Below, in pieces: positions 36,001 to 39,000 of a stretch of 64,000 nucleotides of DNA. The position numbers are program-made. Within the stretch, counting starts at the first letter, position 1. Each line of letters begins with the position of its first letter. Source of the stretch: Escherichia coli (GTDB lineage Bacteria > Pseudomonadota > Gammaproteobacteria > Enterobacterales > Enterobacteriaceae); the NCBI RefSeq assembly GCF_016026235.1, contig NZ_CP065613.1; one strand, 5' to 3'.

Positions 36001-39000
36001 TTTTCTTGCAGTATTCGATCACTTTAGGAATTTGAGTGAGATCGGTTTCATTTAAAGTAACGGTATCGCCACCTTTATATACTGTTTCTTCATGCAGCAT
36101 CCACCATGCAACCGGGGTCATTGCTTTTGGATTCAGATCAATAAATTCCTGGCAGGTCATATCTTTAGCGGATTCATTGGCTGCCAGCGCAGATTGTGCG
36201 TTCACCAGTGACAAAGCCGCTACAGCGCCCATAAAAATAAACGCTTTACGGAGAGATGAAATATTCATTTTGTAACCCATTCAATATAGAGATTATATAT
36301 GAACAGGAGGAATAGCTGCTTTTAAAGAAGATATTCCGGCCTGTTCAATATGCAAGGAAGTACGATGTAACGCATTCCCGGAATTACATATCTTTCTTAA
36401 TTTTGTCCCATTCGCCTTTAACTTTATCTTTAAAGTTGGCTTGTTTATCCTGAGTACAAGCCTGAACGATAGCTGGGGTTACGGTTGCAATACCCTGAAC
36501 ATCTAAAACCGCATCTTCTGGTTTATCTTTGTTGTTCAGCGCTTCAGCAAAACCAACTGCAGTTGGCTGGAAGGATTCGTCCACAGCCAGGAAATCTTCA
36601 CAGGTCCAGGAGTTGACCGGTTTTTTGTTATCAGCTGCTTTTTGCGCATCCGCTGCATTGCTCACAACTGGCAGAAGAAGCAGACCACCAAGAATAACGC
36701 CTAATACTTTTTTCATCGTAATATCCTCAACTATAAAGTGAAAGAGCCGTCACGAATCAATTTCGACACTGAGGTTATAACCTGGTTTTCTGTATATGTC
36801 ATGTTGATGGAAAATATCAAAATCAGATATTTTTATTTCAATACAATGAGTTACAGATGCATCAGATACTGTAATTAGGAAATTTTTATTAAATCGACTG
36901 CATTCTTAGACGCGTTTTTGGCATAGATTGATAGCAGGGGATTTTCTTCTTAATTTTATAGGGTGGTTCTATGTTATATATAGATAAGGCAACAATTTTG
37001 AAGTTTGATCTGGAGATGCTTAAAAAACATCGCAGAGCAATCCAGTTTATTGCCGTGCTGCTGTTTATCGTCGGGTTGCTGTGTATCAGTTTCCCGTTCG
37101 TTTCTGGCGATATTTTAAGCACAGTAGTAGGTGCATTATTAATCTGTTCGGGCATTGCGCTTATTGTTGGATTATTCAGCAACCGCAGTCATAATTTCTG
37201 GCCGGTATTATCCGGTTTCCTCGTCGCAGTCGCCTATTTATTGATCGGCTATTTCTTCATCCGCGCACCGGAGCTGGGCATTTTTGCCATTGCGGCATTT
37301 ATTGCCGGTTTGTTCTGTGTTGCAGGGGTTATTCGCCTGATGAGTTGGTATCGTCAGCGTTCAATGAAAGGCAGCTGGCTACAGCTCGTTATTGGTGTGC
37401 TGGATATCGTCATTGCCTGGATATTCCTTGGTGCAACGCCGATGGTGTCTGTAACGCTGGTTTCCACACTGGTGGGAATTGAACTGATATTTAGCGCCGC
37501 CAGCCTGTTCAGCTTCGCCAGTTTGTTCGTTAAGCAGCAATAATTACCCCGGTTGTCACCCGGATCATAGTCACTTGATGTGACTATGATCCGATTAATA
37601 CTCTCTCCGCTACGCAGTGTTGTAGATCAATTGCGCACTATCATTGAAATAATTACCTGCTAGTGATTATTTCAACCTACTGAATTTCATCTAATTTTTT
37701 TCACTCCATGGCAAATTAGCCATTTCAAACATTATCATGGCTGATATTTTCCGTAGTCAGGTTTAATGTTTTAAAAGTGCTGTGGGAAAGTGAACAAAGA
37801 GTTCCGTAAGCGTTGATGCTATGGGCGGTTAAATAAGTAATCCGGGTTCATTTTTTTGCAACTGGCGTTGATTACATTGCATAAATATCCGTGTCTCCAG
37901 ACGCTATATAAAAACCTGAAGACATGAATGCGTTATTTACTCAGGTAATTTCAATGCGTTAAAAGAAAGCTGGCAATCCAATTGCCAGCTTAAGTCGAAA
38001 CAAGGAGACTCGATATTTAAATCGGATTACATTTTAACTTTAGTAATATTCTTCAGAGATCACAAACTGGTTATTGATAACTTATTCTTGGGCAGTAATC
38101 CGCAAACGTTAACTTTTTGTTTACTATTTACAAGCTGATAACAACCAGGAATCTTACTTAGGATCAATATATGGAGTGCGTGATGGATAAATCTGAAGTA
38201 TTGATTAGTGTTAATAGACGTATTAGTTCACGAAGGGTAAAGTTCTTATAGGCGTTTACTATATTGAACAACGATTCGGACAAGGATGTAAATAATGAAA
38301 AGGATGACATGTTCGAAACGATAACGGCTAAGGAGCAAGTTATGATTTTTCTCATGACGAAAGATTCTTTTCTTTTACAGGGCTTTTGGCAGTTGAAAGA
38401 TAATCACGAAATGATAAAAATCAATTCCCTGTCAGAGATCAAAAAAGTAGGCAATAAACCCTTCAAGGTTATCATTGATACCTATCACAATCATATCCTT
38501 GATGAAGAAGCGATTAAATTTCTGGAGAAATTAGATGCCGAGAGAATTATTGTTTTGGCACCTTATCACATCAGTAAACTAAAAGCTAAAGCGCCTATTT
38601 ATTTTGTTAGCCGCAAAGAAAGTATCAAAAATCTTCTTGAGATTACTTATGGTAAACACTTGCCCCATAAGAATTCACAATTATGTTTTTCACATAATCA
38701 GTTCAAAATTATGCAACTGATTCTGAAAAATAAAAATGAAAGCAATATCACGTCGACGCTCAATATTTCGCAACAAACATTAAAGATTCAGAAATTCAAC
38801 ATTATGTACAAACTGAAACTAAGACGTATGAGCGACATCGTCACCCTGGGTATCACATCTTATTTTTAGTCAGGACATAAACAACTGAAATTGATGGCTG
38901 GCATGACGAGGGATGCAGATGCTGATTTCATTACCCCCGGTGATTACTAAAGGAGAGGCTAAAACGATTTTATTCCCCTGGTATGTGTATCCACCAGTAG

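What the first reader, a model, noticed from the sequence alone, without database searches (positions are those of the whole stretch)
37562..37592. Perfect 13-bp inverted repeat immediately downstream of hdeD at the start of the gadE control region
ggatcatagtcac-ttgat-gtgactatgatcc is a perfect palindrome with no following U-tract, so it is not an obvious intrinsic terminator. It could be an RNase-protective stem-loop ending the hdeD transcript, or a dimeric regulator-binding site at the distal edge of the long, AT-rich gadE regulatory region.
Basis: seen in the sequence. Interest (0 to 1): 0.25.

Follow-up and report, generated by a model that had tools for sequence, protein, structure and literature searches.

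The report
Stem-loop ending the hdeD mRNA
The palindrome just after the acid-resistance gene hdeD is a conserved RNA hairpin that marks and most likely protects the 3' end of the hdeD messenger RNA; this is an ordinary, already understood kind of element, not a new regulator site for gadE.

Summary
It is a perfect 14-bp inverted repeat (37561-37574 / 37580-37593, loop TTGAT) that starts 17 nt after the hdeD stop codon and has no U-tract. None of 40 Markov shuffles of the window produced such a hairpin. It occurs at one locus per genome in 5412 of 5426 complete E. coli genomes, so it is not a REP-type repeat.

Across Escherichia (E. albertii, E. whittamii, cryptic clades) the loop and flanks diverge freely. 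The stem is kept, and three base pairs are changed on both sides.

Published Term-seq (Adams et al. 2021, supplementary file 1, M63 medium) lists a + strand RNA 3' end at MG1655 3657621, which is window 37597, 4 nt after the stem. The paper classed it "orphan" only because it lies 54 nt past hdeD and its cut-off is 50 nt. The same study calls a bicyclomycin-sensitive (Rho) termination region peaking 112 nt further downstream.

Best reading: Rho stops hdeD transcription downstream, and exonucleases trim the transcript back to this hairpin (the Dar and Sorek 2018 class).

The operator idea has no support. The GadE/W/X, FNR and AppY binding sites reported in the papers I checked all lie elsewhere.

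The finding is ordinary and of low interest.

The parts
36971..37543 (+). hdeD coding sequence (190 aa), the gene whose transcript the hairpin ends
   Evidence: ORF list. Annotated as hdeD in RefSeq genomes. MG1655 coordinate = window coordinate + 3,620,024.
37561..37574 (+). 5' arm of the stem (CGGATCATAGTCAC)
37575..37579 (+). loop (TTGAT), free to vary between alleles and species
   Evidence: Loop mean pairwise identity is 42%, against 82-84% for the arms.
37580..37593 (+). 3' arm of the stem (GTGACTATGATCCG)
   Evidence: 94% of cells are paired across 10 distinct Escherichia sequences, and 3 pairs are changed on both sides.
37597..37597 (+). experimentally mapped RNA 3' end (MG1655 3657621), 4 nt after the stem (...GAUCCGAUUA)
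   Evidence: Adams et al. 2021 supplementary file 1, sheet M63 0.4: 3657621, + strand, average 1149.98 reads, class 'orphan'. Coordinate conversion.
37598..37709 (+). untranslated stretch with more C than G downstream of the hairpin: the inferred Rho loading and termination zone, ending at the published Rho-score peak (MG1655 3657733)
   Evidence: Adams et al. 2021 supplementary file 2: 3657733, + strand, Rho score 6.83, p = 2e-20. C/G ratio is 1.4-3.6 over 80 nt in all eight Escherichia sequences. The extent is inferred, not mapped.

Best explanation
The palindrome is transcribed as the last part of the hdeD mRNA and folds into a 14-bp stem-loop that defines the steady-state 3' end of that mRNA. 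It has no U-tract, so it is probably not where RNA polymerase stops. Polymerase most likely runs on into the untranslated stretch with more C than G, where Rho terminates it within roughly the next 100-150 nt, upstream of the gadE P3 promoter. 3'-to-5' exonucleases (PNPase, RNase II) then trim the tail back until the stable hairpin blocks them. That leaves a transcript ending 4 nt past the stem and protects hdeD mRNA from further decay. Together, the hairpin and the Rho site also keep GadE-activated hdeD transcription from running into the gadE control region. What is shown: the hairpin, its conservation with compensatory changes, the mapped 3' end, and a bicyclomycin-sensitive region downstream. 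What is inferred: the order of events (Rho first, trimming second), the nucleases involved, and the stabilising effect.
For: The hairpin is perfect, stable and far from chance. It starts 17 nt after the hdeD stop codon on the hdeD strand. Term-seq in MG1655 grown in M63 lists a + strand 3' end at 3657621 = window 37597, 4 nt after the stem, and no - strand 3' end at 36575xx. Its 'orphan' label follows from that paper's 50-nt rule; the end lies 54 nt past the stop codon. No U-tract follows the stem. A Rho termination region is called at 3657733 (+): without BCM, 101 reads upstream and 28 downstream; with BCM, 251 upstream and 475 downstream; p = 2e-20. Dar and Sorek 2018 showed that E. coli Rho-dependent transcripts end precisely just after stable stem-loops lacking U-tracts, followed by mild C-over-G enrichment, and that these ends are produced by PNPase/RNase II trimming. 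C exceeds G downstream here in every species examined. Conservation fits a structure. In E. albertii, E. whittamii, E1V33, E69 and MOD1 the loop (42% identity) and the 5' flank (41%, with a 16-nt indel) diverge. The arms stay paired in 94% of cells, and pairs 1, 3 and 4 are changed on both sides (C:G/U:A, G:C to C:G, A:U to C:G). 0 of 500 shuffles reached the observed pairing or covariation score. About 97% of 5412 E. coli genomes carry one of two perfect alleles. Kluyvera cryocrescens has a different 11-bp hairpin at the same place after its hdeD.
Against: The 3' end appears in only one of three growth conditions, with a modest read count (about 1150), and in one data set. I could not reach a second 3'-end data set. 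The Rho call uses 800-nt windows that include the gadE promoters. With BCM the downstream reads exceed the upstream reads, so part of the signal may be promoter de-repression and not read-through. The C-over-G excess in the window itself is only moderate (70th percentile of 80-nt windows). Wobble and mismatch variants do not identify the strand: three give G·U on the + strand and two give G·U on the - strand. The 93% sequence identity of the inner 10 bp is more than structure alone strictly requires. No experiment has tested the stabilising effect.
Confidence: 0.7

Rival explanations
1. It is a non-canonical intrinsic (Rho-independent) terminator. The long hairpin alone, perhaps helped by NusA/NusG, releases polymerase at the weak AUUAAUACU tail, and the mapped end is the termination point, perhaps nibbled by a few nucleotides.
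For: A very stable hairpin lies directly before a mapped 3' end. The tail has 3 U in its first 6 nt. The motif TAAYACTC after the stem is fairly conserved across species (73% identity in the 3' flank).
Against: The tail fails the U-tract criterion (T weight 1.28 against 2.6 for arrS). No species has a U-tract there. The end is 4 nt after the stem; from general knowledge, intrinsic terminators usually release 7-9 nt after the stem, inside the U-tract. A bicyclomycin-sensitive region is called just downstream. Only 6 of the 14 stem pairs are G:C.
Confidence: 0.2
2. The DNA palindrome is an operator for a dimeric regulator, or a cruciform-forming site, at the distal edge of the gadE control region, and it acts on gadE P3 or on hdeD.
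For: The palindrome is perfect and its centre-to-centre spacing is constant in all species. The inner 10 bp are 93% identical across the genus. The P3-containing fragment of the intergenic region matters for anaerobic activation and binds ArcA-P in gel shifts at unmapped positions.
Against: 14-bp arms are far longer than usual half-sites (general knowledge). The outer four pairs change with base-pair compensation and do not keep a fixed sequence. The GadE/GadW/GadX ChIP-exo tables have no site between 3,655,500 and 3,655,699 in U00096.2 coordinates. The FNR peaks reported for gadE and hdeD are at 3,656,030 and 3,654,924. AppY is reported at the P3 -35, and its motif sits at window 37737-37744. 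The most distal known gadE start, T3 (-566), is 183 nt downstream of the stem. None of the papers read on this region mentions a site here.
Confidence: 0.07
3. It is a chance palindrome or a remnant of a mobile or repetitive element (REP/BIME, MITE, IS end) with no function of its own.
For: Intergenic palindromes in E. coli are often REP elements, and another 14-bp hairpin in the window (56210-56240) contains a GCCGGATG-like core.
Against: 0 of 40 shuffles gave such a hairpin. There is a single locus per genome and none on plasmids. There is no other copy in the window within 3 mismatches beyond chance level. It is kept with compensatory changes across the genus while the flanks diverge.
Confidence: 0.02

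Closest known systems
Stem-loop-defined 3' ends of Rho-dependent E. coli transcripts (Dar and Sorek 2018, NAR 46:6797, PMC6061677)
   Same: A stable stem-loop lies immediately before a precise steady-state 3' end. No U-rich tail and no upstream A-tract. C exceeds G downstream. A bicyclomycin-sensitive region lies beyond the hairpin. The element is not a REP, as was true of 76% of their cases.
   Different: Rho dependence and exonuclease trimming have not been shown for this particular transcript. The stem (14 perfect pairs, 43% GC) looks longer and more AT-rich than I would expect for a typical terminator-like stem (general knowledge, not measured here). The hdeD entry of their tables could not be consulted because the supplement is not held.
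Canonical intrinsic terminators, for example the arrS terminator 400 nt away (37967-37991, - strand)
   Same: A hairpin at the end of a transcription unit with a mapped 3' end just after it.
   Different: There is no U-tract (calls arrS but not this hairpin). The 3' end is 4 nt after the stem, not within a U-run. The stem has lower GC content.
REP/BIME palindromes that stabilise upstream mRNA
   Same: An extragenic palindrome 3' of a gene that can block 3' exonucleases.
   Different: It is single-copy and specific to this locus. It does not match any Rfam family.

Membership tests
Protective 3' stem-loop of a Rho-terminated mRNA (Dar and Sorek 2018 class) | Stable stem-loop immediately upstream of a mapped, precise steady-state RNA 3' end on the gene's strand | tested here: met
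   Fold -25 kcal/mol, z = -7.9. Term-seq 3' end at MG1655 3657621 = window 37597, 4 nt after the stem.
Protective 3' stem-loop of a Rho-terminated mRNA (Dar and Sorek 2018 class) | No uridine-rich tract after the stem | tested here: met
   Tail is ATTAATACTCTCTCC. Not called by the terminator scan. T weight 1.28. The same holds in all species.
Protective 3' stem-loop of a Rho-terminated mRNA (Dar and Sorek 2018 class) | Bicyclomycin-dependent read-through beyond the 3' end | tested here: inconclusive
   A published Rho termination region peaks at 3657733 (+), score 6.83, p = 2e-20. Its 800-nt windows include the gadE promoters, and with BCM the downstream reads exceed the upstream reads, so promoter de-repression may contribute.
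Protective 3' stem-loop of a Rho-terminated mRNA (Dar and Sorek 2018 class) | C-over-G enrichment (rut-like) downstream of the stem-loop | tested here: met
   C/G ratio is 1.4 (window) to 3.6 over 80 nt in eight Escherichia sequences. It is only moderate in the window itself.
Protective 3' stem-loop of a Rho-terminated mRNA (Dar and Sorek 2018 class) | Longer 3' tails appear in pnp or rnb mutants (exonuclease trimming) | not testable with these tools
   Needs RNA-seq or Term-seq from exonuclease mutants under hdeD-expressing conditions.
Canonical intrinsic (Rho-independent) terminator | U-tract (at least 5 U in 8 nt) directly after a GC-rich stem, with the 3' end inside it | tested here: not met
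   The 3' end is at +4 in AUUA. 6 of 14 pairs are G:C.
REP/BIME repetitive extragenic palindromes | Many dispersed copies per genome | tested here: not met
   One locus per genome in 5412 genomes. No further copy in the window.
Palindromic transcription-factor operator of the gadE control region | Occupancy by a regulator at the palindrome | tested here: not met
   Not met for the regulators whose reported sites I could check. No GadE/GadW/GadX ChIP-exo site there. FNR peaks reported for gadE and hdeD are elsewhere. AppY is reported at the P3 -35. ArcA binding within the P3 fragment is unmapped. Other regulators were not tested.
Any described RNA family (Rfam 15) | Match to a covariance model | tested here: not met
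   No hit at the hairpin at E <= 1. The only real hit in 35000-40000 is ES205/GadF at 38987-39058.

The most novel reading that the evidence does not exclude
The hairpin does more than block exonucleases. The near-invariant inner 10 bp (TCATAGTCAC/GTGACTATGA) would be read sequence-specifically by an unidentified protein, either on the RNA or on the DNA (as an operator or cruciform). That would make it an insulator that decides how much GadE-activated hdeD transcription leaks into the gadE P3 region, a hidden feedback control of the acid-resistance master regulator.
Probability: 0.07. Interest if true: 0.45.

Novelty: new member of a known kind. Interest (0 to 1): 0.15.

Why it matters
Its main value is for annotation. 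It gives hdeD a defined 3' end and a 54-nt 3' UTR. It explains an "orphan" Term-seq peak in a published table. It also sets the real upstream boundary of the gadE "sensory integration" region: the first 55 nt or so of the 798-bp intergenic region belong to the hdeD transcript. Reporter constructs that start at -798 therefore carry the hdeD hairpin. If the Rho model holds, conditions that weaken Rho could let GadE-activated hdeD transcription read into gadE. This is a modest point that can be tested. Nothing here changes what is known about how such elements work.

Tried and rejected
- Rfam scan of 35000-40000 at E <= 1: nothing at the hairpin.
- Search for further copies in the window with up to 3 mismatches: chance level only.
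- Strand assignment from G·U versus A·C variants: 3 events favour the + strand and 2 favour the - strand, so this is uninformative. The strand rests on Term-seq alone.
- Dam/SeqA idea: the two GATC sites in the arms are replaced by CCTC/GAGG in the E. albertii, E. whittamii, E1V33 and E69 sequences, so they are not the conserved feature.
- Resemblance of parts of the palindrome to FNR and CRP sites, judged by eye: the half-site order or sequence does not fit, and the FNR peaks reported for gadE and hdeD lie elsewhere.
- Second 3'-end or Rho data sets: the supplements of Dar and Sorek 2018, Herzel 2022 and the nanopore study are not held, and the ids tried for Thomason 2015 (TSS) and Peters 2012 (BCM) are not held.
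- Literature searches for hdeD with Term-seq, terminator, Rho-dependent or RIL-seq: no paper discusses this hairpin.
- One script comparison of the window with MG1655 had an off-by-one slice, and its mismatch list is meaningless. Only the coordinate conversion from that call is used.

Full report
**1. What is in the sequence**

The window carries the E. coli acid fitness island: hdeB and hdeA on the - strand; hdeD at 36971-37543 (+); a 798-bp intergenic region; gadE starting at 38342 (+); then mdtE.

- The reported palindrome is real and one pair longer than described: CGGATCATAGTCAC / GTGACTATGATCCG, at 37561-37574 and 37580-37593, 14 of 14 complementary, loop TTGAT.
- It begins 17 nt after the hdeD stop codon and lies at -781 to -749 relative to the gadE ATG.
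- As RNA it folds at -25 kcal/mol on either strand (z about -7.9; 0 of 200 shuffles fold as well).
- In 40 first-order Markov shuffles of the 64-kb window, no perfect hairpin of 14 bp or more with a 3-12 nt loop appeared. The mean count was 0.025 for 12 bp or more. The real window has three.
- The tail ATTAATACTCTCTCC is not a U-tract. The terminator scan found the arrS terminator (37967-37991, - strand) but not this hairpin. A T-tract weight gives 1.28 here against 2.6 for arrS.

**2. It is not a repeat family and not a described RNA**

- No other copy occurs in the window beyond chance.
- In 5,426 complete E. coli genomes it is found in 5,412, always at one chromosomal locus after hdeD and never on a plasmid.
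- Rfam 15 has no match there.
- RefSeq annotation shows no feature between hdeD and arrS.

**3. Comparative evidence**

Within E. coli there are two main alleles.

- The K-12 type is in about 3,931 genomes and a B2-like type is in 1,305. Together these are about 97% of genomes, all with a perfect stem of at least 13 bp.
- Between the two alleles the 13-bp core is identical. The 14th pair changes from C:G to T:A on both sides, and the loop changes from TTGAT to ATTAA.
- Rare variants carry a single U·G pair (E7-1N7), a C·U mismatch (SCPM-O-B-8794), or an open terminal pair (O145, MOD1).

A genome-collection scan with HdeD recovered the locus in E. albertii, E. whittamii, Escherichia sp. E1V33, strain E69 and Escherichia sp. 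MOD1.

- The sequence between the stop codon and the hairpin gains about 16 nt and is barely alignable. The loop differs in each (TCATA, TTGTG, GCACA). The hairpin stays.
- On an ungapped alignment of 10 distinct sequences, 94.3% of cells form standard pairs, against 87.2% in shuffles and 24-46% when the partner column is slid.
- Three pairs change on both sides: pair 1 U:A/C:G, pair 3 G:C to C:G, pair 4 A:U to C:G. 0 of 500 shuffles reach the observed pairing or covariation score. Pairs 3 and 4 probably changed in one lineage, so the number of independent events is small.
- Mean pairwise identity is 82-84% in the arms, 42% in the loop, 41% in the 5' flank and 73% in the 3' flank. The inner 10 bp are 93% identical.
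- Kluyvera cryocrescens has an HdeD only 57% identical and a gadE-like gene in convergent orientation. It has a different 11-bp hairpin (L013, about 3082-3107) in the same place.

This pattern is what selection on a structure produces. It does not say which strand matters: single-arm transitions give G·U on the + strand three times and on the - strand twice.

**4. Experimental evidence from the literature**

MG1655 coordinates equal window coordinates plus 3,620,024, so the hairpin is at 3657585-3657617.

- Adams et al. 2021 (eLife 10:e62438, PMC7815308), supplementary file 1, sheet M63 0.4, lists a + strand Term-seq 3' end at 3657621. The average is 1,149.98 reads, and the printed flanking sequence is exactly this hairpin. 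This is window 37597, so the RNA ends ...GAUCCGAUUA, 4 nt after the stem.
- The paper classes it "orphan" because its "primary" class requires the end to lie within 50 bp of the ORF end. This end is 54 nt away.
- It is not listed for LB at OD 0.4 or 2.0. No - strand 3' end is listed at 36575xx.
- Supplementary file 2 of the same paper (DirectRNA-seq with and without bicyclomycin) lists a Rho termination region with its highest score at 3657733 (+), which is window 37709, 112 nt beyond the 3' end. Read counts without BCM are 101 upstream and 28 downstream. With BCM they are 251 and 475. The Rho score is 6.83 and p = 2e-20.

**5. Mechanism**

Dar and Sorek 2018 (PMC6061677) showed the following for E. 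coli Rho-dependent transcripts.

- They have precise steady-state 3' ends immediately after stable stem-loops.
- These stem-loops lack U-rich tails and are followed by mild C-over-G enrichment.
- Rho terminates further downstream, and PNPase and RNase II trim the transcript back to the stem-loop.

The hdeD hairpin fits each descriptive criterion. C exceeds G downstream in all eight Escherichia sequences (C/G 1.4-3.6 over 80 nt), although only moderately in the window itself.

I therefore read it as the protective 3' stem-loop of a Rho-terminated hdeD mRNA.

- Shown: the structure, its conservation, the 3' end, and a BCM-sensitive region.
- Inferred: that Rho acts on hdeD read-through specifically, that exonucleases create the end, and that the hairpin stabilises the mRNA.
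- Main caveat: the 800-nt windows of the Rho score include the gadE promoters, and with BCM the downstream reads exceed the upstream reads. De-repression of those promoters may add to the signal.

**6. Rivals**

- A U-tract-less intrinsic terminator is the serious alternative (about 0.2). It shares the hairpin and the 3' end, but it fails the U-tract criterion and the expected 3'-end distance.
- A regulator operator or cruciform is possible but unsupported (about 0.07).
  - The GadE/GadW/GadX ChIP-exo tables list no site in the 200 bp around the hairpin.
  - The FNR peaks reported for gadE and hdeD are at 3,656,030 and 3,654,924 in U00096.2 coordinates.
  - AppY is reported to bind at the P3 -35. 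Its motif ATGGCTGA is at window 37737-37744.
  - The most distal known gadE start, T3, is at -566, which is window 37776.
  - ArcA-P shifts the P3 fragment but was not mapped more finely.
- A chance palindrome or repeat remnant is contradicted.

**7. Comparison and novelty**

This is an unannotated example of a known class. The mapped 3' end already sits in a public table, mislabelled as orphan by a 4-nt margin. No paper found by the searches discusses the hairpin. It is a new member of a known kind, of low interest.

Practical consequences:

- hdeD gains a defined 3' UTR of about 54 nt.
- The first 55 nt or so of the "gadE promoter region" belong to the hdeD transcript.
- Rho activity may gate read-through from hdeD towards gadE.

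Noticed in passing
window 37711-37750: The block CAAATTAGCCATTTCAAACATTATCATGGCTGATATTTT is nearly invariant (at most one or two changes) from E. coli to E. albertii, while the sequence around it is diverged. It contains ATGGCTGA, which matches the published AppY motif ATGSCWGM that overlaps the -35 of gadE promoter P3. It also contains two short inverted repeats (I3 and I5).
   Followed up: partly
window 37575-37579 and loci L003, L006, L007: The hairpin loop is TTGAT in the K-12 type, TTAAT in MOD1 and SCPM, and ATTAA in the B2-like allele. ATTAA is the reverse complement of TTAAT, so the loop seems to have been flipped between alleles. This would be a DNA-level inversion across the inverted repeat, not three substitutions.
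   Followed up: partly
window 37563-37566 and 37588-37591: Each arm of the E. coli hairpin contains a GATC (Dam) site. In the E. albertii, E. whittamii, E1V33 and E69 sequences these are replaced by CCTC/GAGG, with compensation, so the Dam sites are not the conserved feature.
   Followed up: yes
window 37644-37675: A second, imperfect inverted repeat, TTGAAATAATTAC / GTGATTATTTCAA (12 of 13), lies 50 nt downstream of the hairpin. The TGAAATAA part is conserved across the genus. Its function is unknown, and it lies in the inferred Rho zone upstream of gadE P3.
   Followed up: no
window 37967-37991 (- strand) and 37995 (+ strand): The arrS antisense sRNA terminator is a canonical hairpin plus T-tract. 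Term-seq lists its 3' end (MG1655 3657984/5) with very high counts. Term-seq also lists a + strand 3' end at 3658019 opposite it, so this hairpin may act in both directions.
   Followed up: partly
window 38987-39058 (+): An Rfam ES205 sRNA hit (105 bits) lies in the gadE-mdtE spacer. It corresponds to the annotated sRNA GadF of MG1655.
   Followed up: yes
window 37102 (+), inside hdeD: Term-seq (M63) lists an ORF-internal 3' end in hdeD at MG1655 3657126, 131 nt from the start codon, with about 1,500 reads. This is as strong as the end at the hairpin. It could reflect premature termination or a decay intermediate, possibly linked to the known CyaR/RprA control of hdeD.
   Followed up: no
locus L011 (NZ_JAUFQN010000010.1): An 8.6-kb contig labelled Flavobacterium paronense carries an E. 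coli-type hdeD locus (98% protein identity), including the hairpin. This is almost certainly contamination of that assembly.
   Followed up: no
locus L013 (Kluyvera cryocrescens), 2501-3654: In Kluyvera the gadE-like gene is convergent with hdeD, and the two stop codons are only 56 nt apart. A single 11-bp hairpin without flanking T or A tracts lies between them. There is no long 'sensory integration' region in this arrangement.
   Followed up: partly
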